41,538 nucleotides of DNA from Chrysochromulina tobinii (Eukaryota). The stretch spans positions 1 to 41,538 of the forward strand of contig JWZX01003220.1 of assembly GCA_001275005.1 (NCBI GenBank), given 5' to 3'. A program made the translations under genes and the position numbers. The notes under the pieces were generated by a model. The model did not search any database. It was not told the DNA's origin and saw only the letters and a program-made list of their open reading frames with translations. Below, in pieces: positions 1-41,538 of this stretch; position 1 is the first letter of the stretch, and the number at the start of each line of letters is the position of its first letter.

Positions 1-2
1 TC

Positions 3-485
3 GCGACGCTCACGAGCCTGGTGGATGAAGATGGCAGCAGAGGCAGTGGCCAGGGCGCGCTCGACGGCTCGGTGCTTTCAAGCTCGGAGCAGCCCGCGAG
101 CACAGCGGCTGGCTACGTGCCCACGCCGCTCTCGATGCAGGTGCGTGAGATGCGCAAGGGCTCCGATGCGCACAAGGGCGTCAAGGACAATATGCTGCTC
201 GCGTTCAGCAGCGTGATGTCTCGACTCGACGCCATCTATGCAGCAAGGGCGGCGAAGGCGCCCGAGGGCTTTGAGGAGCGCATCAACTATTGGCATCGCG
301 AGTGTGGCATGCGGACCGACCTGAAAGATCGGTTGCACTCGCTCCGTATTTGGAGGAATGCCGCGAGCCACCTCGACGACGATCGGTGGCGCCGCGACGG
401 CCCACGCAACGAGGCGGAGGCGTCGCAGCTCGTGTCCGCAGTGAAGACAGCGATCGAGGCGCTCGAGGGTGCTCCATCACGTTGA
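3..485 (+). CDS. C-terminal part of a protein ending in a HEPN-like (DUF4145-type) helical domain; 5' end lies outside the window
   Basis: The frame is open back to position 3. FEERINYWHRECGMRTDLKDRLHSLRIWRNAASH carries the HEPN R-N-x3-H motif in a typical helical context. Stop TGA at 483-485. Confidence 0.6.
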   Translation, partial: ATLTSLVDEDGSRGSGQGALDGSVLSSSEQPASTAAGYVPTPLSMQVREMRKGSDAHKGVKDNMLLAFSSVMSRLDAIYAARAAKAPEGFEERINYWHRECGMRTDLKDRLHSLRIWRNAASHLDDDRWRRDGPRNEAEASQLVSAVKTAIEALEGAPSR

Positions 486-1079: not shown

Positions 1080-2607
1080 TTATGACTGGATGCTGCTGCT
1101 CTCGACCCACGTGTACTTGGTGAGCGGCGGCGGTGTGGTAAACATCAGGTAGTCGGCCAGCGGGAGCACGGCGCTACCAACGCGTGCCTGGCTCACCGCA
1201 GCGGCACGCTCGCGATCTTCAGGCTTTGAACCAATGACAGGCGCGCCCCCGTCGCCCGGCACGGGCGCATACCGCAGCTGCAAGATGTACTCGCCAAAGT
1301 TGAGACGCCCGCCGGGACCACCAGCAATCGACGGGTCTCTCACCTGCATGCAATCAGTGAGGCATGCATGCAATCAGAGAGGCGAGCAGCAATCGACGGG
1401 TCTCTCACCTGCATGCAGCGCAACTCGTGACCATCCGCGTCAAACGGCGGTCATCAGCGGTCATCAGAGGTCATCAGCGGTCATCGGCGGTCGAACGGCG
1501 GTCGAACGGCGGTCATCAGCGGTCATCAGCGGTCATCAGCGGTCATCACACCAGCGTGCGAGTCGAGGGATGGCTCACCGTATCCGATGGGAGCGGGTTG
1601 AGCATGACCGACGCGACGGAGGCGAGGCCGCCGGGTAGCTGGCGCGCGCATCGCGCGGGTACGCCGCAGCCGAATTTCACATGGTCGGAGCCCACGAGGC
1701 CGACGAGAAGCCCCTCCGGGTTGTTGCGGCACCAGGCGGCCGACGCAGAGCCCATGCTCTCATCCCATAAGACTCGTCCCGAGAAGAAGTTGCGAAAGCT
1801 CATGTCCTCGTCGAGCATCTGGCCGGTGATCGTCGTGCGCAGGATGCCCATCCGCTGGTGCATCTGGTAACTCGGCTTCACGATGTATGCCACGTACTCC
1901 TTGAATGCAGTCGTCGCTGCGAATGCCGAGAAGCCCTCAGGGTCGGTCACGTAGCTGCGCAGCGTCTCAGGCGGCAGCGCAGGCAGGCCGCCCACCTCAA
2001 CACGGCTCAGGTCCTCCGAGTCCACGTTGAGCGCGAGCAGCGGGATGCCGAGCTCGCGGCATGCACGAAAGACGGGAGCATAGGCGGCGAACGGCCAGAA
2101 CCAGCGCTTTCGCCACTCAGTGGCCTCCTCGAGCTCCACCTCGCCGATCCGGCCCGCCACGAAGCTGTCGAGTGCCGGCTGGAAGCGGCGCTGCACCGCC
2201 TCGAGCCCGACGGCCATGGGTAGGCTGCCGCGTTCCTTGTGCAACTCACGGATGACTGCGGACTGTAGCAGGTGGTCGGCAGCGCTGTTGTGGTGCTCTC
2301 CGAGGAATACGGCGCGACACTGCTGCAGCTGCTTGACGATGGTACCCGCGGTAAGAGGCTTGACTGTCGGCGAAAGAGTCTTTGTCGAGTCGGGCACGAC
2401 ACTGTAGATTTCGGCCGAACGTAGTGTGACGCCATCTTCAGTTAGAAGCAGTGTGGCTGCGCTGGTAGGCAGGACGCCAGAGAGGCCAGCGGCGGCGAAC
2501 GCGCCGGCAAGTGCTCTGCGCGAGACGTGGCTGCAATGCTGGTTGCCATGCTGCGGTGTATGCAATGCGGCGACCCCAATACTCAGAAGGAGCACGAGCA
2601 TCGGCAT
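1080..2607 (-). CDS. ChaN/PhuW (Tiki-superfamily haem-uptake-like) protein, probably in the thylakoid lumen; exons 2607-1579 and 1343-1080
   Basis: Motifs AVFLGEHH, MAVGLEAVQRRFQPALDSF, WDESM, VGSDHV and the C-terminal PLADYLMF. N-terminal signal peptide MPMLVLLLSIGVAAL, then SRRALAGAFAAA (Tat-like). A phase-0 GT..AG splice joins the two ORFs. Confidence 0.85.
1344..1578 (-). other. Spliceosomal intron made of two stacked units (1578-1409 and 1408-1344)
   Basis: GTGAGC donor at 1578, a TGATGACCGC tandem array, an internal CAG|GTGAGA at 1409/1408, and the final CAG acceptor at 1344. Removal restores the frame. Confidence 0.85.
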
Positions 2608-4888: not shown

Positions 4889-5541
4889 TGCTAAGCGCAG
4901 CCTTGCCGACATCGTCGAGGCTGCTCGTTCGTGGATCTTCGATGGCGATTGCGAAGAGCCGAGGGACGCGGCTCACAAGCTCAACGAGTTCGTTGGGCTT
5001 GGGTACTGCGACCTCGGACAAATGACGGCGTCACCCCCAAAGGCCGTTGCGTTGCATGCGCAGGCCAAGGGTGCCGCCCGATGAGATCTTCTCTCGCACC
5101 ACGGTAGGCTCACAAAACGCATCCCCACGCACAATCCAGTGCCCCCAAACCCGGCCGTCGAGCCCCTCGTGGTCTCGTTTCTCAATTCCTTCTTCTGGTA
5201 TGAATCAGATATTTGTACGGGTTGAGCCGCGGCCGCGACGGACTCGTCGTCTTCGTGCTGCGCGTACCACTCGGCACGTCACTCGTCAGGACCACACGCA
5301 GTGGGGATTTATTGCTCAGTCGCCGGAGCATTTCCATTTGGATTTGCAGTCTTGCGCATCCTTCATATCCTTCTATCCGACCGGACTGTGAGGACCCAGA
5401 TCACGATTCGTCTGTTCCAGGCGTTTACGTGGTCGGGGGTGCGTATTCGGGTAAGTTGGTTGAGCTGACCTTTCTTCTAACTTGTTCGCAGTCTTCATAC
5501 GCCCGGAGCCCCGCGGACGCGAAGCCGACGAGCGGCCTAAT

Positions 5542-7014: not shown

Positions 7015-9220
7015 CGGATGCGGCGGATGCGCAGCCGAGTGCGGCGGGTGCAGCTGCTCCGATGGCCGTATGAGATGCGTCTTCGCGGCGCTGATCTCGC
7101 GCTATGGGTTCGTCAACGTCGTCGCCTTCGTCACCGCGATGTTCTCCTTCCCGTTCGACTTCTTCTCCTCCGAGCCCGAGGAAGTCACCTCTGAGCTCTT
7201 TGGCGCGGCGCCCTTCGACTTCAAGGCACGCTGGTCCATCACTCCTTGATTGCGTCTTGATTGCGTCTGATGGCCCCAGTTGATGCCCTCTGATTGCCTC
7301 CCTCATCAGGCACGCTGGTCCAATCCATCACTCCTGGTCAACCTCTGCATCTACACCGTGTGCAAGTTCTTCTTCACCTCCGTGGCCGCCGGCTGCCCCT
7401 TGGGCGTCGGCATCTTCACACCCACGTTCCTCATAGGCGCCGCCACTGGGCGGGCCTTCGGTGAAGCTCTCAATGCGCTGCTGGTCCTCACCTCGTCGTC
7501 CTTCCAGGTGACCGCTGAAGACCGCTGATGACCACTGATGACCGCTGATGACCGCTGATGACCGCTGATGACCGCTGATGACCACTGATGACCGCTGATG
7601 ACCGCCGATGACCGCCGATGACCACTGATGACCGCTGATGACCGCTGATGACCGCTGATGACCACTGATGGCCACTGACTGATGGCCACTCTCATTGCGC
7701 GGCTTCCAGGTGACCGCGGGGGCGTACGCGGTGGTTGGCTCCGCGGCCATGGCGGCCGGCGTCACCCGCACCATCTCATGCGCCGTGATGGTCTTTGAGC
7801 TCACTGGACAACTCAACCACCTGCTGCCGGTGCTCGTGGCGGTGCTGGCCGCGTACGGGACTGGCAACGCGTTCAACAAGTCGTACTACGACACCATGCT
7901 CGAGCTCAACAATTATCCGTTCTTCAGGCCGCCGGACCTGACAGTCCCCTCCTCGCAGGCGGCTCAGGATGTGATGGACACGTCCCTCGTCGGGCTGGCG
8001 CGCGTGTGCACCTACCTCGATGTCCACCTCCTACTCACCACGTCCAGTGACTTCGAGTTTGCAGTCGTGGATGCTCTGGACAGCCAACGGCTGCTGGGCA
8101 CGGTGACCCGCGCTACGCTCGCGCGGCTGCTCGATGCGCACATGCTGAGCGGCGAGCGCGCGCGCCGCCATCGGATGCCAGGCCTGGGGACCGTCCTAGG
8201 GAGTCGATTTCGTCAACAGTTTCGTCGGATGCCCGGCCTGGGGAGTCGGTGCGGCAGTATGGGCAGCCTGCTGCGCGGCAGCCTCGCCAACGGTCTGAGT
8301 CGCTTTCTCTCCCCGTCTGCGGGAGTTTCGTCAGTTGGTGTCTCCATCGGAGTCGCCTACGAAGCGACGGAGCGCGCACGCCTCTCGTCGGGCGCCTCCG
8401 ATGGCGCTTCGGACTGTGCGTCACACGACGCCGTCTCCTTGGAGCCCTCAGCAGACCATCAGACGACCATGCACCTGCCCGACCGCGCGCTGCGTGAGGC
8501 GCTCGCTGGAGCCGTTTCCGAGGATACGCTGTCGGACACTCAAAGCCCGGCACCGACGGCGGCTGCGGCTGGCGATCCCGTCGCCGGACGCACGAGCGGA
8601 GGCAGTCCGAGCGGCGGCGGCACCGGTAACGGTAGCAGAGGCACCGGCGAGGCCGAGGCCGACGACGACCGTGAGTGGCGCTGCGCGCGTGGCAGCGGCG
8701 TGCTATGCGGACCTCACGCGGGAAAGTCGCTCGGAGAGCGGCAGCGGCAGGCAGGGGTACGTCGGGCGCACCCATCGGCCTCGCCCAGCATGCACATGCT
8801 CACCACAGCGCTCTCGCCCCCACAGATACGGGCGCACCCATCGGCTCCTCAGCCTCGCCCAGCATGCATGTGCTCACTACGGCGCTCCTTCCCCTCCCCC
8901 CACAGGTACCCATGGGCTCGGTGTATTCAGAGCTCGAGCTCGCCTTGCTTCGTCAACCCGTGGACTTCGGAATGGAAGCCGCGGACAGCGACACATGCGC
9001 CGGCGCCGCCGACAGGCTCGGCGGCGGCGCTGAGGGCGCGCCCGGGGTCCCCACGCTTCCTAGCGGTGGTCTCGTGCAGTGCGCGCCGAACATCTGCACG
9101 GCGGGCGCTCCGCTCAGCCAGGTGCACATGCAGTTCTCGGTGCTCGGGCTCGAGCGCACCTACGTCACGTACGCCGGGCGCCTGCTCGGCGTCATACGCC
9201 GCTCGCAGCTCGGGCGGTGA
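5542..9220 (+). CDS. CLC: CLC-family chloride channel with two CBS domains; exons 5542-6426, 6533-7225, 7310-7507, 7710-8756 and 8906-9220 (the linker splice is less certain)
   Basis: Motifs GSGIP, GKEGP, GGVLFSIEVTS, GIFTP, YAVVGSAAMAAGVT, VFELTGQ and SYYD. CBS2 reads VHMQFSVLGLERTYVTYAGRLLGVI. All four splices are phase 0 and in frame. Confidence 0.92.
6427..6532 (+). other. GT-AG intron 1 of CLC (106 bp)
   Basis: CAG|GTGCGC donor, CTGAC branch-like site, pyrimidine tract and CGCAG acceptor. Removal joins the two ORFs in frame. Confidence 0.88.
7226..7309 (+). other. GC-AG intron 2 of CLC (84 bp), TGATTGCGTC/CCCTCATCAG family
   Basis: AAG|GCACGC donor, in-frame TGA at 7247-7249, ends CCCTCATCAG. 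The 5' end duplicates the downstream exon start. Confidence 0.85.
7508..7709 (+). other. GT-AG intron 3 of CLC (202 bp), TGATGACCRC tandem-repeat family
   Basis: Roughly 15 copies of a 10-nt unit, with CTTCCAG|GTGACCGC at both junctions. Removal restores the frame. Confidence 0.9.
8757..8905 (+). other. Intron 4 of CLC; two related units in tandem (8757-8825 and about 8832-8905)
   Basis: GTACGT donor in phase 0. Both units contain GGGCGCACCCATCGGC..CCTCGCCCAGCATGCA..GCTCAC and end CCCCCACAG. The 8905 acceptor opens the CBS2 frame. Confidence 0.65.
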
Positions 9221-15403: not shown

Positions 15404-17131
15404 ATGGAGACGGGCTTCATGTGGCCTGACCTCACACGGCATCATCACCCACAAGGCTTCGAAAACATGAAGGTCAAGGACGTTCTGGCCTGGTCCTCCG
15501 AGAAGGCCACCCACGTAGTGACCTGGTCCTCCGAGAAGGCCACCCACGTAGTGACCTGGTCCTCCCAACACGTCTCCGATGCTCTTTGCGTGAGCATCAA
15601 CGTTTCGTGCAGGAAGAAACCAGAGCTCTTTGACCAGCCGGGTGGGGTCGTCTTCTTCTGCATACTGGCGTTTTCCAATGTGTTTGCACTATTAGTTCTC
15701 ATCTCCGTAGTCGGCGGCTTTGTCACGAGGCTTTTGGATCCGGCGGCAGCATTCGCACGCACACTTCGTGACCCGCGCGCACACGCTTTCGCCAATATGC
15801 AGCGCGAGGTACTCGGCAAGACGTCCCTAACCGTGCTGGTGCCATGCTACCTGCCCAACGAGCAGCTGATCGTGAAGAGCACGATCGCACACCTGATCCA
15901 CAACCTCGAGTACAGCTTCCCGTTCCGCCTCATCGTTTGCTACAACACGCCCTACCCGATCGCCTTCGAGGACGAGCTGCGCGAGCTCGACGGGTACGTG
16001 TACGCCAACGGCCGGTCCGTGCAGATTCTCAAGGTGGAAGGCTCCTCTTCCAAGGCTGAGAATCTCAACTGCGCGCTGCTCTCCGTGGACACCGAGTATG
16101 TCGCCCTGTACGACGCCGACCACCACCCTGACGCGCACTCGCTGCTCATTGCAAGTGCGCACATGGCGGCGCGCGGCGTCGCGTGCGTGCAAGGATCGAC
16201 GTACCTTCGATCGTTGCCCAACTTCATGGCCGTCTACATCAACGCCGAGTTCTTCGTCACCCACTTTGTCTTCTTTCCTGCCATGCAGTTCCTCACGTCC
16301 TTCGGAATCTTTGGCGGCTCGAATGCGCTCTGGAGGACCGCCATCCTCAAAGCGTACCAGTTTCGTCATGACGTGCAGACTGAGGATATCGACGTGTCGA
16401 TCCGGTCCTCGCTCGATGGGCGCGTCAAGATCTCTTTTTGCCCCGAGTGTCGCTCGGGTGAGCTGCCGCCACGTACCTTCAACGACCTCTACCGACAACG
16501 GCTGCGCTGGGCTCTAGGGTGGGATCAGGTGACGCTGCAACACATGCGCAGCATTGGGAGCAGCACCGAGCTCAACTGCGCCGAAAAGGCTGGCATGTAT
16601 TACCTGCTGCCGCTCCGATGGGCTCTTCTCTTGTCCGGTGTGGCCAATGCACTCGTCGCGCCGATAGTCGCCTCCGCTTGGGCGAATGGTGTCGGCGGCG
16701 AGCTTGGTGGTCCGATTGAGACTTGCTACGCCTTCTCGTTCACCACGTACGCCACGCTTTTCGCTGTCGCGGCCATCAACGCCATCCTCCACGAGCCACG
16801 GCAGCGCTGGCCGGCAATTATCGCCTTCCAATTGACCGGCGCCGTATATATTGGCTGGAACCTCGCGCTGTACTTCATCTCGCTCATCAAGATTTGCACG
16901 GGCGCGGATAGCGAGTGGGTCGTCACCACGCGCGCGCCCGACGTTCCTTCCAGGGCGCGCACCGCTGGGCTCGCTTATTTGCACCCGAGTGATACATGCG
17001 CATCAAGCCCTCGGCCTGAGCTGAGCACGCCCATGCAGGCAGCGTTCGCGATGTCGTGTGAGAAGGAGCTCGTAGAAAAGTACAACGCGGCGCGTGGCGA
17101 AGTGTCGGACCCGCCCATCCCCATGCTTTAG
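15404..17131 (+). CDS. Processive GT2 beta-glycan synthase (cellulose-synthase-like), intronless
   Basis: LVPCYLPNE, SKAENLN, YDAD (DxD), GGSNALWR, TED and QRLRW (QxxRW). One N-terminal and several C-terminal TM helices. A 33-bp tandem duplication encodes WSSEKATHVVT. Confidence 0.9.
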   Translation: METGFMWPDLTRHHHPQGFENMKVKDVLAWSSEKATHVVTWSSEKATHVVTWSSQHVSDALCVSINVSCRKKPELFDQPGGVVFFCILAFSNVFALLVLISVVGGFVTRLLDPAAAFARTLRDPRAHAFANMQREVLGKTSLTVLVPCYLPNEQLIVKSTIAHLIHNLEYSFPFRLIVCYNTPYPIAFEDELRELDGYVYANGRSVQILKVEGSSSKAENLNCALLSVDTEYVALYDADHHPDAHSLLIASAHMAARGVACVQGSTYLRSLPNFMAVYINAEFFVTHFVFFPAMQFLTSFGIFGGSNALWRTAILKAYQFRHDVQTEDIDVSIRSSLDGRVKISFCPECRSGELPPRTFNDLYRQRLRWALGWDQVTLQHMRSIGSSTELNCAEKAGMYYLLPLRWALLLSGVANALVAPIVASAWANGVGGELGGPIETCYAFSFTTYATLFAVAAINAILHEPRQRWPAIIAFQLTGAVYIGWNLALYFISLIKICTGADSEWVVTTRAPDVPSRARTAGLAYLHPSDTCASSPRPELSTPMQAAFAMSCEKELVEKYNAARGEVSDPPIPML

Positions 17132-17379: not shown

Positions 17380-19947
17380 TTATTGGACGAATTTCTCGGC
17401 ATAGTAGAGCGCTGCTGTGGCCTCCGGTGCGCTCATGGCGAAGCGGGCGCGAACACGTGCGCTGGGATAGATGCCTTGAGGATACAGCAGCTTCAACCGT
17501 ACTTTGGGCACTCCGGGCGTTGGGGACCCCTTCGGCTGTCCGGGTGCGCCGCGCGCACCCCCCTTGGCTGCCTGCGGACTCGCGAGCGCATTCTCAGCCG
17601 CGGGCGGTTCGCAGAGCCCTACCAACTGCTGCCAGGGCGGCGGCGTTGGCTCCTGGGGCGACGGCGTTTGCGGGAACTGACACTGCTGCGATGGCGGCTG
17701 CCACTGTTGCTGCCATTGCTGCGGCTGCGGTTGCGGCTGCGGCTGCGGCTGCTGCTGCTGCCACTGCTGCTGCTGCTGCTGCTGCTGCACCCGCAGGCGC
17801 TCCTTTTGTAGTGCCTGCTTGGCTGCGGCCTTCAACTGCTGCTGCTGCTGCTGCTGCTGCTGGCGCTGCTGCTGGCGTTCGGCTGCTTGGCGAGAAAGCT
17901 CCGCGGCCTTCAACTGCTGCGGCTGCTGCTGGAGCTGGAGCTGCTGCTGCTGCCACTGCTGCTGCTGCTGCTGCTGGAGCTGCTGCTGCTGCTGGAGCTG
18001 CTGCTGCTGCTGGAGCTGCTGCTGCTGGAGCTGCTGCTGCTGGAGCTGCTGCTGCTGCCACTGCTGCTGCTGCTGCTGCTGCTGGAGCTGCTGCTGCTGC
18101 TGCCACTGCTGCTGCTGCTGCCACTGCTGCTGCTGCTGCCACTGCTGCTGCTGCGACTGCTGCTGCTGGTGCTGGTGCTCCGCCGCCCTCTGACGTAGCA
18201 GTGCCTCCTTCTCGAGCACAGCGCGCTGCTTCTGCTCGAGCAGCACCCGCTGGCGATACTCTTGTAGAGCCTGCTTGGCTGCGGCCTTCTCTCGACGCTC
18301 CACCTCCTTCTCGACGCCCTTGAAGAGCCGGCCGAGCACGGCGCGCACCTCGAGCTCGATGCGGCGCTCTTCCGCAAGCCGCAGCTTCTCGGCCGCCTGC
18401 CAGTGACGAAACTCGAGTTGCGCGCGTCTCGCCGCCTCGGCCGCGCTTCGCTGCGCCTCGAGAGCCCGCATGCGCTCCACCGCGAGCGCCCGCGCGAGCT
18501 CCTGCTCGTGTGCCAGCTCGACTCGGCGGACCAGCTGGTCGAGGGTGCGACTCACCTGATGAGGGATGCAATCAGACGCAATCAGACGCAATCAGACGCA
18601 ATCAGACGCAATCAGACGCAATCAGACGCAATCAAGGGTACGACTCACCTCAAGGGTGCGAAGCGCCTCCTCGGACAGCGGCGGCAGCTTGGGCTTCGGC
18701 GGCAGGTTGAGGTTGAAACCGGCCCCGGGAAACGGCGTGGGTACGTGCACGACGATCTGCAGCTTCATGCCCGGGTAGGCGTTCGGAGGCAAGGTGATCT
18801 CAAACCGTCGCGGGGAGGGTGTGCCCGGCTCGAGTACAGCGATCCGTTGGCCGGGCACCATACCCGGCGTCACGGTGACGATCAGCTGCTTCGTCTGCAT
18901 GCTTGGGAGTTGGATGGGCTCCACGAGACGCTTGATGAGGGATTCCACCACAGCACGCACTTCGCGATCCACGCGCTTGTCGCATCTATCGAGGCGCGTC
19001 CGCAGCGCTGAGCGTTGGAAAGGCGTTCGGCCGCCGTCTACGCCGGCGGCGCCGGCAGCACGGGCAGCACCGGTGATGCACGCACCATCCGACGCAGATG
19101 GATCTCCGGATCTCGACGGATCTCCCAGGCCGAGCCGTACGAGCGCCGCGTCGAGCGCCACCGCAGCTGGCGCTGCGCCGTGCGACGACTCGTCGGCGGG
19201 CCCGAGGCCGTCCGTGAGAGTCATGGCACAACGCTTACAAAGCGAGCGCGATTCCGCCAGTGTCGACAACGTTGGCCTTCGGAACTGGCGATCGGCGTCG
19301 AACGGTAGCGCGTCGCCGCAGAAACAGCAGATCACTTCCGCCTTGCGGCGGCTCCCACTGCGCCGGGGTTGCGACGACACCGCAGACGAGATCAGCCCCT
19401 CTGTGTGGCAAGTCAGCGCAGCTGCGGAGGCGCTGCTTCCTCCAGCCGTAGCTGTCCGAGGCAGGCGCGCGGGCTCCTCCGCGCGCTCGTCGCCGCCTTC
19501 CTGGGTGGTACGGCGTCGCTTTGGCGCAGGTTCCACCTCGTCCATCTCGGGTGGTCGCGCAACCAGCTCTGCCAACGTTTCCTTCGTGTGGTGGCGGGTG
19601 GTGCCAGGCGCACGATGGAACCAGGCCTCACCTTCGTCGCTGTCGTTGCCGCCATCATAACAGTCATGATTGTTGACGTCCTTGGCGGAGTGTTTGTAGC
19701 CGGGCTGACGGCTCTTCCACTCGTCGCGCGCTTGCTCCTGTTCGCGGTTTATCTGGCGCTTGAGAGCTTGCTGTGCATCCGGCCGGCGCCACTCCTCCTT
19801 AGCGAGCGCGAATGCCTGCGAGGATGTTAGTGACGAGTCGGCCTGGGAAAGTGCCGAGCGTCGCTCCTGCACGAAGCGATTGTATGCCGAGAGCGGGATC
19901 GAGTCGTTCGAGCTCGAGTTTGCGGCCGTTTTGTACGAAAGTGGCAT
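17380..19947 (-). CDS. Putative nuclear protein: HMG-box-like domain, Cys4 cluster, coiled coil and long poly-Q/W tract; exons 19947-18649 and 18555-17380
   Basis: PLSAYNRFVQERR..AFALAKEEWRR is HMG-box-like. NLS PKRRR, CCFC..CKRC and a paired VTPGMVPGQRI/LPPNAYPGMKL motif. A 93-bp intron joins the ORFs in phase 0. Confidence 0.75.
18556..18648 (-). other. GT-AG intron (93 bp), TGATTGCGTC/CCCTCATCAG family
   Basis: GAG|GTGAGT donor, six TGATTGCGTC units with an in-frame stop, ends ATCCCTCATCAG. The 5' end duplicates the downstream exon start. Confidence 0.9.
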
Positions 19948-24635: not shown

Positions 24636-27302
24636 ATGGACCCCAGTGAGCGCTCGCCGCTGCCCCCGGCGGCGGCGCAGGAAGCCAAAGAGGTGAGCCC
24701 CGGGCTCAATCGATGCTCCTACTCGTTCTCGATCAAGCGCGGGCGGGTGACCACGCGTGATGACGACGCTCCGTTCAGCAACAGGAGGCGGACTTCCACT
24801 CCCATAGGCCTGGGTTCGCGCGCGGGCGAGTCGCCATCGCACTTTGCACGGCTGCACCTCGGAGGTCAGGACGCGTGCTCTTACTCCCGCATGCCGCGCG
24901 CGCATCCCCTCTTCTCGCGACCAGCTCTCTCACGCGCCCTTGCCTCCCCGGGATCAGGTGGCGTTTCACCAGTGGGTCTTCCGTCTGCGGCCGCGGGGCC
25001 ATCGGATGCGATGGTGCCGCTCTCGCGCGGTGGCGGCACCCGCCTCATCATGCACGGCGGGCGCGGCGTCTCGCCGTTCGCCGCCTTTGCCAACGCGCTC
25101 ACGCCGCTGCCAGCGGAGCAGGCGGTCGGCGGCAACCTCGCACGGCTGCTGCATAAGAGCCACTACTCCAACTACCAGCCACCGTCCGGGCCGATGGCCA
25201 GGATGGGCTCGCCGTCCATCGAGGCACCGCCGAGCATCCTACCACCCGCTGCTGCTGCCGTTGCCGCTGCCCCGGCCGCTGCCGCCGCCGTCGCTGCTTT
25301 GGGGTTCGCCGGCGCCAGGTCGGCGGCGTCGCAGCGCAAGTCGCCCGTACGAAGCGGCGCTTCGTCTTCGTTGCGCAGCGCACCCCTGGTGGGCGAGAAC
25401 CTCGGCGAGAACCACACGGGCGGCGCACGGCTGAGCATAGGCAGTGCGACCGGACCGACCGACCGACTGACCGACGAGGACGCAACGACGGCGGCGGCAG
25501 CGCCGGTGCCACCCACGCTCGGCGAGGCCTCGAGTGCCGACTCGTCGTGGTACATCGGTGGCGCCGGCGCGACGTCGGCGACGAGCCAGCCGCCCTCGGC
25601 TTCGCGTGCCTCTTGCGAATCGGCGGCGCGGAAGGGCAACTCGGGAGCACGCCGCGGCCTGAAGCTCCTCGCCGGCAGCCATTTGCCGCCCGGCAGCAAC
25701 AGCGCTGGTGGCAGCAGCAGCAGCCACGCGGCGGCGACGCCGCTGCCGCCGCTCGATGACACGCCATCCTCCATCGAGCGCTTCCTGCACGCGAGCGTCG
25801 CCGACAACATCGGCGGCGATCGTGCCCTTTGCGGTGCACTCGGGCTCGACATCACGATGGAGCAGATCATCGCCGGCATCGATGAGTCCGAGGAGCAGCA
25901 GCTCGGGAGTGGACTGGCGGGCACCTGCGACACCTGCGAGGACGAGGGCGGTGCCGGCGAGGACGGTGCGGGCGTGCAGCAATATGACGAAGCGGGCATG
26001 CCGATTGCGCCCCAAGCGATCAAGTCGTCCAAGAGCCGTGGCGGCCGGCCAAAGAAGTGTAACTGCCGCAACTCCAAGTGCCTCAAGCTCTATTGCGATT
26101 GCTTCTCGGTCGGGCTCATGTGCGACGGGTGCAACTGCAACGACTGCGCGAACAAGGAGGAGACTCGGGACAAGGTCGACGAGGCGCGCAAGTCGGTGCT
26201 CAAGCGCAACCCGAAAGCATTCCAGGCAAAGTTCATCGACCAGGAGAAGGGCGAGGCGGCCAAGGAGGGCGTCACCCAAAAGGAGAAGACCAAGCACGCG
26301 CGCGGGTGCAACTGCACCAAGAGCCGCTGCATCAAGAACTACTGCGAGTGCTGGCAGATGGGCATCGAGTGCACCGACAAGTGCAAGTGCGTCGACTGCG
26401 CCAACAACGGCAATGTCGACAAGTCCGGTGGCGCCTTCCTCGCGCCTTCGACGGCGGCGACGACGACGACGACGACGCAGGGCCTCGAGAGTACTAGCGA
26501 CCTACCACGGATGCCGCCGATGAAGCTGCTGGATGCCGACGAGCTCGGGGCGCCCGGCAGTGCCGGACCCCGATTGTTCGACGACGACCTATTCGGCGGC
26601 ATTGGTGGCGGTTCGCGCCACTTGGACGAGCTGCCCTTCAGCTCGCCCTTCTCGCCCGATGCGTCGATGCTCACGACGCCCGCGCCTGCTGGGTTCATGG
26701 CGCATGTCGCCCCGACCGCGCATCTGCCGCCCGCGACGGCTCTCTTCCACAACGGTGGGGGCAGCAGCACCGGCAGCGCCAGATCGAGCGCCAGATCGGG
26801 CGCCTTCCCGACCAGCACGCCGCTCGCCGAGTCCTTCCAAGACGATGATCTCGCGTCGTTGGTGGGGATGGCGGTCGGGCTCAGTAATGCCCAGCAGCAG
26901 CAGCAGCACCAGCACACGTCGCGGCCGACCGCGCCACCGCCCCAGACCGTACCCCCGGGATTCGTGCGTGCCCCGCCACGGCTTTCGCATGGGGGCACGG
27001 GTGGGCCGAGCAGCTCGACAGTCGCCACCGCGCCCACCTTCCTCGCACCGACGCCATCGGCGCAGCCAGGCGCCACCGGCGAGGCGCTCGCAGGCCTATC
27101 AAGCGAGGAGCGCATCGCAGTACTGAGCGAGCTTGCTCCGTTCCGACTCGACACGCCTACGGGCTGCTCGATCAAGGCGCTGCTTCAGGCCAAGCCCGGA
27201 TTCGACGACGAGGATGCACCACCCGCAAAGCGCATGCAGACCGAGCTGTCAAGCGCCAAGGGAGGCGAGCATCCCTTGGACGCGACGACCATGGCTACGT
27301 AA
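24636..27302 (+). CDS. LIN54: CRC-domain (tesmin/TSO1-like CXC) transcription factor, LIN54 homolog
   Basis: CNCRNSKCLKLYCDCF..CNCNDCAN, RNPKAF hinge, KHARGCNCTKSRCIKNYCECW..CKCVDCAN. There may be an in-frame 93-bp intron at 24865-24957. Confidence 0.88.
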   Translation: MDPSERSPLPPAAAQEAKEVSPGLNRCSYSFSIKRGRVTTRDDDAPFSNRRRTSTPIGLGSRAGESPSHFARLHLGGQDACSYSRMPRAHPLFSRPALSRALASPGSGGVSPVGLPSAAAGPSDAMVPLSRGGGTRLIMHGGRGVSPFAAFANALTPLPAEQAVGGNLARLLHKSHYSNYQPPSGPMARMGSPSIEAPPSILPPAAAAVAAAPAAAAAVAALGFAGARSAASQRKSPVRSGASSSLRSAPLVGENLGENHTGGARLSIGSATGPTDRLTDEDATTAAAAPVPPTLGEASSADSSWYIGGAGATSATSQPPSASRASCESAARKGNSGARRGLKLLAGSHLPPGSNSAGGSSSSHAAATPLPPLDDTPSSIERFLHASVADNIGGDRALCGALGLDITMEQIIAGIDESEEQQLGSGLAGTCDTCEDEGGAGEDGAGVQQYDEAGMPIAPQAIKSSKSRGGRPKKCNCRNSKCLKLYCDCFSVGLMCDGCNCNDCANKEETRDKVDEARKSVLKRNPKAFQAKFIDQEKGEAAKEGVTQKEKTKHARGCNCTKSRCIKNYCECWQMGIECTDKCKCVDCANNGNVDKSGGAFLAPSTAATTTTTTQGLESTSDLPRMPPMKLLDADELGAPGSAGPRLFDDDLFGGIGGGSRHLDELPFSSPFSPDASMLTTPAPAGFMAHVAPTAHLPPATALFHNGGGSSTGSARSSARSGAFPTSTPLAESFQDDDLASLVGMAVGLSNAQQQQQHQHTSRPTAPPPQTVPPGFVRAPPRLSHGGTGGPSSSTVATAPTFLAPTPSAQPGATGEALAGLSSEERIAVLSELAPFRLDTPTGCSIKALLQAKPGFDDEDAPPAKRMQTELSSAKGGEHPLDATTMAT

Positions 27303-36857: not shown

Positions 36858-37353
36858 TAAGGGATGCATTTGGGAGGACGATCAATTTAGTCGAGGCCGG
36901 AGGAGTTGGTCACATCACGCGACCCGCCCCGGACCCCAATTAGTGAGGCCGGAGGGGGCGGCGGCAATTGGGCGGCGGATACGTAAATAGGTTAGGAATA
37001 CTCAAAAGGTTGGGGCTTCCAAGTTGGGGGGGGGGGTAGGTACACTCAAAATACTTGGGGGTGAACCGATACGGTGGAGACGTATAATTTGGCGTCACTC
37101 ATGAGGCTCGGGGTTAGCCGGGGGTGTGGGCTCTGGGCTGCATGCTGGGCTGCCGGACCCCCAATTAGTGAACCGGGCAGATACGTAAATTTAGGTACAC
37201 TCAAAATACTTGGGCACCCATTAAAGGGATGCATTAGGGAGGACGATCCATTTAGTCGAGGCCGGAGGAGTTGGTCGCATCACGCGACCCGCCCCCGACC
37301 CCCAATTAGTGAACGGGGCGGCGGATATGTATTTATACTCAAAAAGTTTGGGG
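36858..37353. repeat. Modular non-coding repeat block
   Basis: A ~90-bp near-identical direct repeat (AGGGATGCATTWGGGAGGACGATC..CCCAATTAGTGA) at about 36858-36946 and 37221-37311, interleaved with GATACGTAAAT and ACTCAAAA..TTGGG sub-repeats. Confidence 0.85.
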
Positions 37354-41146: not shown

Positions 41147-41538
41147 GTTTGCAAGGAGCGCTGGGGGCCGGAAGTGGAATCGGGAATTTCGGAATCCTGG
41201 GTTTGCAAGGAGCGCTGGGGGCCGGAAGTGGAATCGGGAATTTCGGAATCCTGGGTTTGCAAGGAGCGCTGGGGGCCGGAAGTGGAATCGGGAATTTCGG
41301 AATCCTCTTGGGTTTGCAAGGAGCGCTGGGGGCTGGAAGTGGAATCGGGAATTTCGGAATCCTAAGTTTGCAAGGAGCGCTGGGGGCCGGAATTAGGCCG
41401 GAAGTGGAATCGGGAATTTCGGAATCCTGGGTTTGCAGGTTTGCAAGGACAGCGCTGGGGGCCGGAAGTGGAATCGGGAATTTCGGAATCCTGGGTTTGC
41501 AAGGAGCGCTGGGGGCCGGAAGTGGAATCGGGAATTTC
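41147..41538. repeat. 54-bp tandem satellite running off the end of the window
   Basis: About 7 copies of GTTTGCAAGGAGCGCTGGGGGCCGGAAGTGGAATCGGGAATTTCGGAATCCTGG with small indels and no unique spacers. Confidence 0.95.

What the first reader, a model, noticed from the sequence alone, without database searches (positions are those of the whole stretch)
1322..1578. Two intron units stacked with a zero-length exon: candidate recursive splice site
Seen: a perfect 31-nt duplication at 1322-1352 and 1387-1417 (sense TGCATGCAG|GTGAGAGACCCGTCGATTGCTG). The first intron unit (1578-1409, TGATGACCGC array) ends in CAG, followed immediately by GTGAGA, which opens a second 65-nt unit (1408-1344, CTGATTGCATGC repeats) ending in CAG before the true exon. 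Known: AG|GT ratchet points drive recursive splicing, mostly described in very long animal introns. Inference: a new intron inserted exactly at the 3' splice site of an older one, creating a ratchet point in a 235-nt intron.
Basis: partly seen in the sequence, partly recalled or inferred. Interest (0 to 1): 0.75.

Follow-up and report, generated by a model that had tools for sequence, protein, structure and literature searches.

The report
Duplicated splice junction in algal intron
In a freshwater haptophyte alga the end of one intron and the start of the next exon are present twice, so two complete-looking introns sit back to back; related strains carry a varying number of such copies, some with a dead splice donor, so it is most likely a tolerated repeat of the junction rather than a purpose-built recursive splice site, and how it is spliced is untested.

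Summary
The 31-nt duplication is real. It is exact, is carried by three other contigs, and appears at single-copy depth in two read sets. It consists of 9 nt of acceptor plus the first 22 coding nt of exon 2 of a ChaN-family gene of Chrysochromulina tobinii, so the 'ratchet donor' is a copy of the exon start. Five of 10 intron units in the window begin with such a copy. A sister lineage, seen only as translated ORFs, has a 48-nt [exon start + acceptor module] unit at the same site. It shows 1-3 extra copies in 11 of 15 listed proteins, and in 7 of those 11 the first copy has GT changed to AT. This fits a 'mirage', a length-unstable tandem duplication of an intron-exon boundary known from amphioxus. 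What differs here is that the unit is itself a complete GT-AG intron. Six low-depth RNA contig sets show no splice joint at this intron, so recursive splicing is neither shown nor excluded (two-step removal about 0.35). The scan has noted mirages, stacked mini-introns and repeat-flanked introns on other DNA.

The parts
1579..2607 (-). Exon 1 of a ChaN (haem-binding uptake, Tiki superfamily) gene, 343 codons, ends in phase 0
   Evidence: PF04187, E 5e-48, residues 91-319; 343+87 aa equals the 430-aa named model P0128
1409..1578 (-). Intron unit 1, 170 nt, GT..CAG
   Evidence: excision not observed
1552..1578 (-). Old, diverged copy of the ancestral exon-2 start that supplies the outer donor (13/20 nt to today's exon start; reads VSHPSTRTL against VSDPSTGTL in an orthologue)
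   Evidence: the sister lineage has the same intron start (P0003, P0134, P0142-P0144)
1447..1548 (-). Array of 10 copies of a 10-nt unit containing a CTGAT branch-point-like motif; abundant in the genome
   Evidence: about 1000 contigs per DNA run are laid on the stretch and depth peaks here
1424..1426 (-). GAG, the only other AG in unit 1 after the donor; in frame with exon 2 if used together with donor 1408 (15-nt microexon 1423-1409)
   Evidence: use not observed
1387..1417 (-). Upstream copy of the 31-nt junction: 9 nt acceptor + 22 nt exon-start copy; the inner AG|GT lies at 1409/1408
1344..1408 (-). Intron unit 2, 65 nt: exon-start copy (22 nt) + acceptor module (43 nt); if retained it shifts the frame, with a stop at 1342-1340
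1344..1386 (-). GATTGC-type acceptor module with branch-point-like motifs at -31, -15 and -11; its last 30 nt read LHACLTDCMQ in exon frame, against LHAECLPHCMQ in the sister lineage
1322..1352 (-). Downstream (authentic) copy of the junction
1080..1343 (-). Exon 2, 87 codons, conserved algal C-terminal tail; its linker is 18 codons shorter than in the sister lineage

Best explanation
The intron-exon junction of this ChaN-family gene is present twice, most likely through a tandem duplication of the boundary (a 'mirage'), and the 235-nt interval is predicted to be removed mainly by joining donor 1578 to the last acceptor 1344, with the inner AG|GT a tolerated by-product. Shown: the exact 31-nt duplication; that its 22 downstream letters are exon-2 coding sequence; that only acceptor 1344 gives the full protein among the zero-exon options; that 5 of 10 intron units in the window start with a copy of their downstream exon start; that a sister lineage has a 16-codon [exon start + acceptor module] unit at the same site in varying number. 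Inferred history: (1) the original intron arose with a duplicate of the exon start as its donor, which is why exon 2 begins with a donor-like GTGAG; (2) slippage or unequal crossing-over then copied [acceptor module + exon start], and because the exon start is a donor, every copy is automatically a complete GT-AG unit abutting the previous one; (3) the copies turn over like a minisatellite, and in the window's lineage only 31 nt of the upstream copy still match. The splicing route is inferred, not observed.
For: Sister-lineage ORFs (exon-2 core 69-71/76 identical): 11 of 15 listed members (cluster of 20) carry 1-3 extra units. With the M-marked first unit as anchor, 0, 1 or 2 further units lie before the exon (P0162/P0166/P0169; P0153/P0159/P0163; P0160). 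In 7 of these 11 the first unit reads MQM instead of MQV, so GTG has become ATG and the inner donor is gone. The window's unit-2 body is the homologue of that module. A second stacked intron in the window (8757-8905; units of 69 and 80 nt, aligned) has an inner CAG followed by AT, and only the last acceptor keeps the CLC frame open. Amphioxus mirages have this anatomy, vary in copy number and do not disturb splicing (PMC3087553 passages; PMC3902484 passage). In human introns under 1 kb that have recursive sites, conventional lariats predominate (PMC10156609 passage). A regenerated donor is not reused automatically: the spliced CLC joint 7223-7308, with 15 letters fitting either side, stands in RNA run X12.
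Against: In the window the repeat is not a clean tandem: the 34 nt upstream of each 31-mer match at only 10/34, so later replacement of the upstream copy has to be assumed. The sister data are translations only; AG is inferred from Q, gene callers choose starts freely, and assemblers can collapse or expand 48-nt repeats. The sister units are in frame and stop-free, so loss of GT there costs less than it would in the 65-nt unit. Unit 2 has the better donor (8/9) and the same anatomy as an intron seen spliced (7226-7309), which favours its removal on its own. The inner acceptor of the 8757-8905 intron could pair with a weak GC donor a few nt later (not tested). No RNA joint 1579-1343 was seen.
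Confidence: 0.55

Rival explanations
1. Same DNA, but removal is mainly two-step. Either unit 2 goes first (inner donor 1408 to acceptor 1344), which regenerates the 170-nt intron with its junction, or unit 1 goes first and the recreated donor is reused (true ratchet, about 0.15 of the 0.35). This concerns the splicing route and is compatible with either origin.
For: Both units are complete, with branch-point-like motifs. Inner donor 8/9, recreated donor 7/9, equal to the outer donor. 65 nt is within the window's 41-265 nt intron range, and an 84-nt intron of the same anatomy is spliced. In Lipomyces complex introns the splice sites defining the smallest intron are chosen first (PMC7138796 passage). 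Use of acceptor 1409 alone gives a stop after 22 codons, so re-splicing would rescue it.
Against: No intermediate in 6 of 6 RNA contig sets (weak, because depth is low). The inner GT is lost in 7 of 11 sister variants. Drosophila ratchet segments are 2.6-63.6 kb and conserved (10.1101/006163, first part of the text).
Confidence: 0.35
2. Origin by insertion: a short mobile acceptor module (Introner-like) landed at the start of exon 2 and duplicated 22-31 nt of its target, taking its donor from the duplicate.
For: Only 31 nt are duplicated. The same footprint is on 7226-7309, 18556-18648 and 7508-7709, and the first two share their 3-prime ends. Contigs from other loci with that intron end continue with GT or GC (loose ends at 7310/7311). 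Module-like sequence occurs at other loci (extra depth at 1342-1398; an X15 contig on 1345-1388 with 4 differences). Introners that carry the acceptor and take the donor from the target duplication are known (PMC9860276 passages; 10.1101/2020.10.14.339549 passages).
Against: The module at this site is shared with the sister lineage, where it is the terminal acceptor and is repeated in tandem, so it was probably there before the duplication. Known Introner target duplications are 3-9 bp, not 22-31. C. tobinii occurs once in the held part of that study's supplement, in the list of screened genomes (file cut when stored).
Confidence: 0.3
3. The stacked intron is poorly spliced and this allele makes mostly truncated or retained transcripts.
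For: Every listed RNA contig that crosses a boundary is unspliced: X11 1239-1391 and 1537-2108, X15 1534-1701, X13 1030-1351. Spliced joints were seen for two CLC introns in X12 and X13.
Against: Depth is about 2-7 and similar over flanking and intergenic stretches, so DNA carry-over is likely. Exon 2 is intact and 69-76/76 identical among relatives.
Confidence: 0.1
4. The inner junction is an ordinary exon end: the GAG at 1426-1424 is used as acceptor, 1423-1409 is an in-frame 15-nt microexon, and unit 2 is a normal intron.
For: The frame is open and in phase; a TTGAC motif lies 16-17 nt upstream of that AG (one search places it at -32 from 1409).
Against: GAG acceptors are rare (recalled). 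The letters before the inner GT read CMQ like the intronic module end in the sister lineage. Outgroup ORFs run directly from DT into VSDP (P0154, P0111, P0175).
Confidence: 0.05
5. Assembly artefact.
For: Repeat-rich intron in a short-read draft assembly (PMC4580454 passage).
Against: Identical in L001-L003; single-copy-depth contig across the unit in X1 and X9.
Confidence: 0.02

Closest known systems
Amphioxus 'mirages' (globin BflGb6, Adh3, troponin C, PGBD5; PMC3087553 and PMC3902484, passages read)
   Same: Tandem copies of the 3-prime end of an intron plus the 5-prime part of the next exon; copy number differs between haplotypes; unit length in the reported 10-160 bp range; only some copies keep splice signals.
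   Different: Here the exon start is itself a donor, so a unit is a complete GT-AG intron with no exon between units. In the window only 31 nt of the upstream copy match. Harmlessness to splicing is not shown here. The host is a haptophyte; my searches listed no such report for haptophytes.
Recursive splicing at zero-nucleotide exons (Drosophila ratchet points, 10.1101/006163, first of two parts read; human sites, PMC10156609 passages)
   Same: AG immediately followed by GT inside an intron; a donor is recreated after the first step.
   Different: Segments are 170 and 65 nt rather than kilobases; the site arose by duplication and is not conserved (GT lost in relatives); there is no junction, sawtooth or lariat evidence.
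[quoted passage not shown]
   Same: Duplication of an intron's 3-prime side and the exon's 5-prime side supplies branch site and acceptor for a second unit.
   Different: In potato the new donor lies inside the exon copy and leaves a small exon; here it is the first base of the copy, leaving none.
Fungal stwintrons and complex intervening sequences (Lipomyces, PMC7138796 passages)
   Same: Short complex intron made of two U2 units, possibly removed in one or two reactions; small duplications at splice sites proposed as origin.
   Different: Neither unit interrupts a donor, branch or acceptor element of the other; unit 1 is complete on its own.
Introners that carry the acceptor and recruit the donor from the target duplication (Symbiodinium, Polarella classes 4/5/6/8/10; PMC9860276 and 10.1101/2020.10.14.339549 passages)
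   Same: The intron start copies the downstream exon start, in 5 of 10 units in the window.
   Different: Duplications are 8-22 nt and variable, bodies are simple-repeat arrays, and no inverted ends or near-identical full-length copies were shown here.

Membership tests
Mirage (tandem intron-exon boundary duplication) | Repeat unit spans an intron-exon boundary | tested here: met
   31 nt = 9 intron + 22 exon; sister unit = exon start + acceptor module
Mirage (tandem intron-exon boundary duplication) | Head-to-tail full-length units | tested here: inconclusive
   Met in sister ORFs at protein level; in the window the 34 nt upstream match only 10/34
Mirage (tandem intron-exon boundary duplication) | Copy number varies between haplotypes | tested here: met
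   0, 1 or 2 units between the M-marked unit and the exon among 7 sister proteins; protein level only, assembler effects not excluded; no variation among L001-L003
Mirage (tandem intron-exon boundary duplication) | Mature mRNA uses the authentic junction | tested here: inconclusive
   No joint in 6 RNA contig sets; P0128 is a gene model, not a read
Recursive splice site (ratchet point) | AG|GT inside an intron with donor recreated after step 1 | tested here: met
Recursive splice site (ratchet point) | Junction reads from the upstream exon to the inner AG | tested here: inconclusive
   None in 6 of 6 low-depth RNA contig sets, but no mature junction either
Recursive splice site (ratchet point) | Lariat beginning at the inner GT; sawtooth coverage | not testable with these tools
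   Only contigs were served, no raw reads
Recursive splice site (ratchet point) | Evolutionary conservation of the inner site | tested here: not met
   First inner GT changed to AT in 7 of 11 multi-unit sister variants; orthology of that unit to the window's inner junction is inferred
Stwintron (sensu stricto) | Internal intron splits a donor, branch or acceptor element of the external intron | tested here: not met
   Unit 1 has its own intact donor, branch-like motifs and CAG
Introner | Family of near-identical introns at unrelated loci | tested here: inconclusive
   Shared ends between 7226-7309 and 18556-18648 and module-like contigs elsewhere; no genome was held
Introner | Short fixed-length target duplication (3-9 bp) and/or inverted ends | tested here: not met
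   Duplications of 8, 13, 17, 22 nt and one degenerate; inverted ends not searched for systematically; folding not above shuffles
Introner | Empty-site allele lacking the element | tested here: inconclusive
   No allele lacking 1344-1408 in L001-L003, X1 or X9; outgroup ORFs are uninterrupted at the whole intron site but may be transcripts

The most novel reading that the evidence does not exclude
Because many introns of this alga are born with a copy of the exon start as their donor, any later duplication of their 3-prime junction creates a ready-made zero-exon ratchet point. Haptophyte genomes would then continually generate stacks of 48-65 nt introns that are spliced out one after another and vary in number between strains: recursive splicing arising de novo in very short introns.
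Probability: 0.3. Interest if true: 0.7.

Novelty: new variant of a known kind. Interest (0 to 1): 0.42.

Why it matters
It offers a compact natural series for asking how a spliceosome chooses among stacked acceptors and how recursive sites arise: a frame-breaking 65-nt unit with its GT intact, in-frame 48-nt units in 1-3 copies with GT kept or lost, and an 80-nt unit with GT lost, all in one cultured alga and its close relatives. If two-step removal is shown, it would be recursive splicing on segments about 40 times shorter than the shortest Drosophila segment (65 against 2,596 nt), with a visible origin. If not, it extends mirages to haptophytes and warns that AG|GT inside a short intron is often only a copied exon start.

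Tried and rejected
Masking hairpin over the inner junction: folding z-scores were -0.58 (1300-1600), 0.11, -0.07, -0.90 and -0.37, and both acceptors are predicted equally paired; rejected. A longer exon 1 ending at 1552 plus a 30-nt mini-exon, to restore the ancestral linker: dropped, because the sister lineage has the same intron start yet keeps the full linker in exon 2, and there is no AG before 1438. RNA: 6 of 6 RNA holders were laid with no joint at this intron; X14 had no cover in the 1217-1433 bin; uncovered parts are no evidence. A product lacking only unit 2 would probably be invisible in these contigs, since the repeat is as long as the 31-letter words (inference). Of 20 listed runs 8 were laid; X2-X8, X10 and X17-X20 were not. 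More sequence of this genome could not be had (no genome; records behind L001 and L003 not held). Four answered viral-collection scans gave 0, 6, 1 and 0 loci; the 7 hits look like chance matches. The genome-collection scan gave 4 loci, none from this gene. Searches used some off-by-one intron ends; the tally comes from the corrected. Only 2 of its 10 units are RNA-confirmed, and 24693-24957 and 5451-5491 are uncertain. The near-length search with P0128 residues 325-430 found only 2 proteins; the 50%-cluster search added no further stacked cases among the 7 new hits read of 21. Paper searches listed no report of stacked or recursive introns in haptophytes; subscription papers are not covered, and the supplement of PMC9860276 was cut when stored.

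Full report
Setting. The feature lies on the minus strand, in a gene whose first exon (2607-1579) encodes a ChaN/Tiki haem-binding domain and whose second exon (1343-1080) encodes an 87-residue tail. A 430-aa protein equal to the two exons joined is on record under the name Chrysochromulina tobinii (P0128). It is a gene model, not a read. The genome paper reports 63.4% GC, about one intron per gene and a short-read draft (PMC4580454, passages).

Observation. The two 31-nt copies are exact and maximal; the longest repeat in 500 shuffles was 12 nt. Three metagenome contigs carry the whole interval unchanged (3 of 3 close loci among 14 returned). In the two DNA-type runs laid, a 95-nt contig spans the unit at about the depth of its flanks (66.7 against 69.2/79.8; 41.7 against 45.5/45.3). 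The unit is therefore real and not heterozygous in that culture, which may be the window's own source.

What the duplicate is. Nine of the 31 nt are acceptor and 22 are the coding start of exon 2, so the inner donor is a copy of the exon start and the true exon start carries the same signal. Acceptor 1344 gives the full protein; acceptor 1409 alone gives a stop after 22 codons; retention stops after 10. The outer donor is also an exon-start copy, an older one: 13/20 nt to today's exon start, and 7 of 9 residues to the orthologous exon of P0007 when read in frame.

The pattern is general in this window. Of 10 intron units that I inferred, 5 begin with a copy of their downstream exon start: unit 2 (22 nt), 7226-7309 (13 nt, then a gap), 18556-18648 (15 of 17), 7508-7709 (8 nt, plus 7 on the other side) and unit 1. 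For these five, 2-10 of 4,369 or 10,155 same-dinucleotide sites scored as well, self-matches included; for the other five the figure was 502 or more. Two CLC introns are confirmed by RNA joints, one with 15 letters fitting either side. The rest rely on open frames.

Relatives at the same site. A search for short proteins matching the junction region returned P0153, whose cluster has 20 members, 15 listed. They match the window's exon-2 core at 69-71 of 76 residues and keep an 18-codon-longer linker. In front of the exon, 11 of 15 carry 1-3 extra copies of a 16-codon unit made of the exon's first five codons and an 11-codon stretch ending CMQ; 4 of 15 show none. The window's unit-2 end reads LHACLTDCMQ in the same frame, against LHAECLPHCMQ, so it is the same acceptor module. 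In 7 of the 11 the first unit has M where V stands, which can only be ATG, so that donor is dead. Between that marked unit and the exon lie 0, 1 or 2 further units, a variation that start-codon choice cannot explain. I saw no DNA for these. AG is inferred from Q by homology, and assemblers can miscount 48-nt repeats. More distant orthologues run straight from DT into VSDP.

A second stack. The CLC intron 8757-8905 consists of two alignable units of 69 and 80 nt. The inner CAG is followed by AT, and only the last acceptor keeps the reading frame to the stop. If my boundaries are right, an inner acceptor without a donor is skipped there; a weak GC donor a few bases on is not excluded.

RNA. All six RNA holders were laid. 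None shows a joint at this intron. The listed contigs crossing its boundaries are unspliced (X11, X13, X15). Depth is 2-7 and similar on flanking stretches, so DNA carry-over is likely; two CLC joints show that some spliced RNA is present. This neither supports nor refutes recursion. No structure hides either junction.

Mechanism. I read the site as a duplicated intron-exon boundary, turning over like a minisatellite, in an intron whose exon start happens to be a donor because the intron itself was born with an exon-start duplicate (steps inferred). One-step splicing to the last acceptor is the most likely main route. Inner donors are lost in relatives and in the second stack; mirages leave splicing intact; and short human introns with recursive sites favour conventional lariats. 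Two-step removal remains a strong rival (0.35), since unit 2 has the better donor and an anatomy that is spliced elsewhere. Inner-first removal seems at least as likely as a true ratchet. Insertion of a mobile acceptor module with a long target duplication is the rival origin (0.3); the 10/34 match upstream of the copies favours it, the tandem sister units disfavour it. Origin and route are separate questions, so these confidences do not add to one. Whether the GATTGC-like letters at the exon's codons 6-7 and the 18-codon deletion came from an earlier stacked copy promoted to exon start is speculation.

Comparison and novelty. It works like an amphioxus mirage (lead from earlier notes; checked in PMC3087553 and PMC3902484 passages) and like the potato duplication. 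It has the sequence form of a ratchet point but fails the conservation test and lacks RNA evidence. It is not a stwintron in the strict sense and does not have Introner-length target duplications (PMC12130899 passages mention no haptophyte). The variant feature is that each unit is a full GT-AG intron with no exon between. Ten paper searches listed nothing on this in haptophytes; coverage is limited to open papers. The scan itself has noted stacked mini-introns in a fungus-like parasite (e1-7126178, not checked). Interest 0.42; if sequential removal is shown, about 0.7.

Noticed in passing
window 8757-8905 (+): CLC-type channel gene intron made of two alignable units (69 and 80 nt); the inner CAG is followed by AT, so the donor is dead, and only the last acceptor keeps the frame.
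   Followed up: partly
window 7226-7309 (+) and 18556-18648 (-): Two introns with near-identical 3-prime ends and GATTGC repeats, each starting with a 13-17 nt copy of its downstream exon start; the first is GC-AG and is seen spliced in X12.
   Followed up: yes
window 7508-7709 (+): Intron flanked by a 15-nt duplication spanning AG|GT, whose exon part matches the 10-nt repeat unit that fills the intron, suggesting microhomology at the target.
   Followed up: partly
window 7310-7311, loose ends in X12-X16: Contigs from other loci sharing this intron end continue mostly with GT- or GC-starting sequence, as expected if exon starts of this family are donor copies.
   Followed up: no
window 1343-1317 (-): Exon 2 lacks 18 codons of linker present in the sister lineage, and the join resembles the GATTGC repeat; P0124 has the same deletion with S and E at two positions.
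   Followed up: partly
window 1-81 and L001 4822 onward: L001-L003 match the window at 99.8% down to position 82 and then continue with a different though similar-looking sequence; the window's first 81 nt may be a paralogue, another haplotype or a contig-end error.
   Followed up: no
L023 and L025: Contigs in assemblies labelled bacterial carry the same 10-nt intron repeat family and look eukaryotic; L023 has two acceptors 21 nt apart, each followed by the same six letters.
   Followed up: no
window 41147-41538; 36885-37315; 15489-15565; 608-667: 54-nt satellite at the contig end, a block repeated at 365 nt spacing, and exact 33-nt and 26-nt tandem repeats outside the finding.
   Followed up: no
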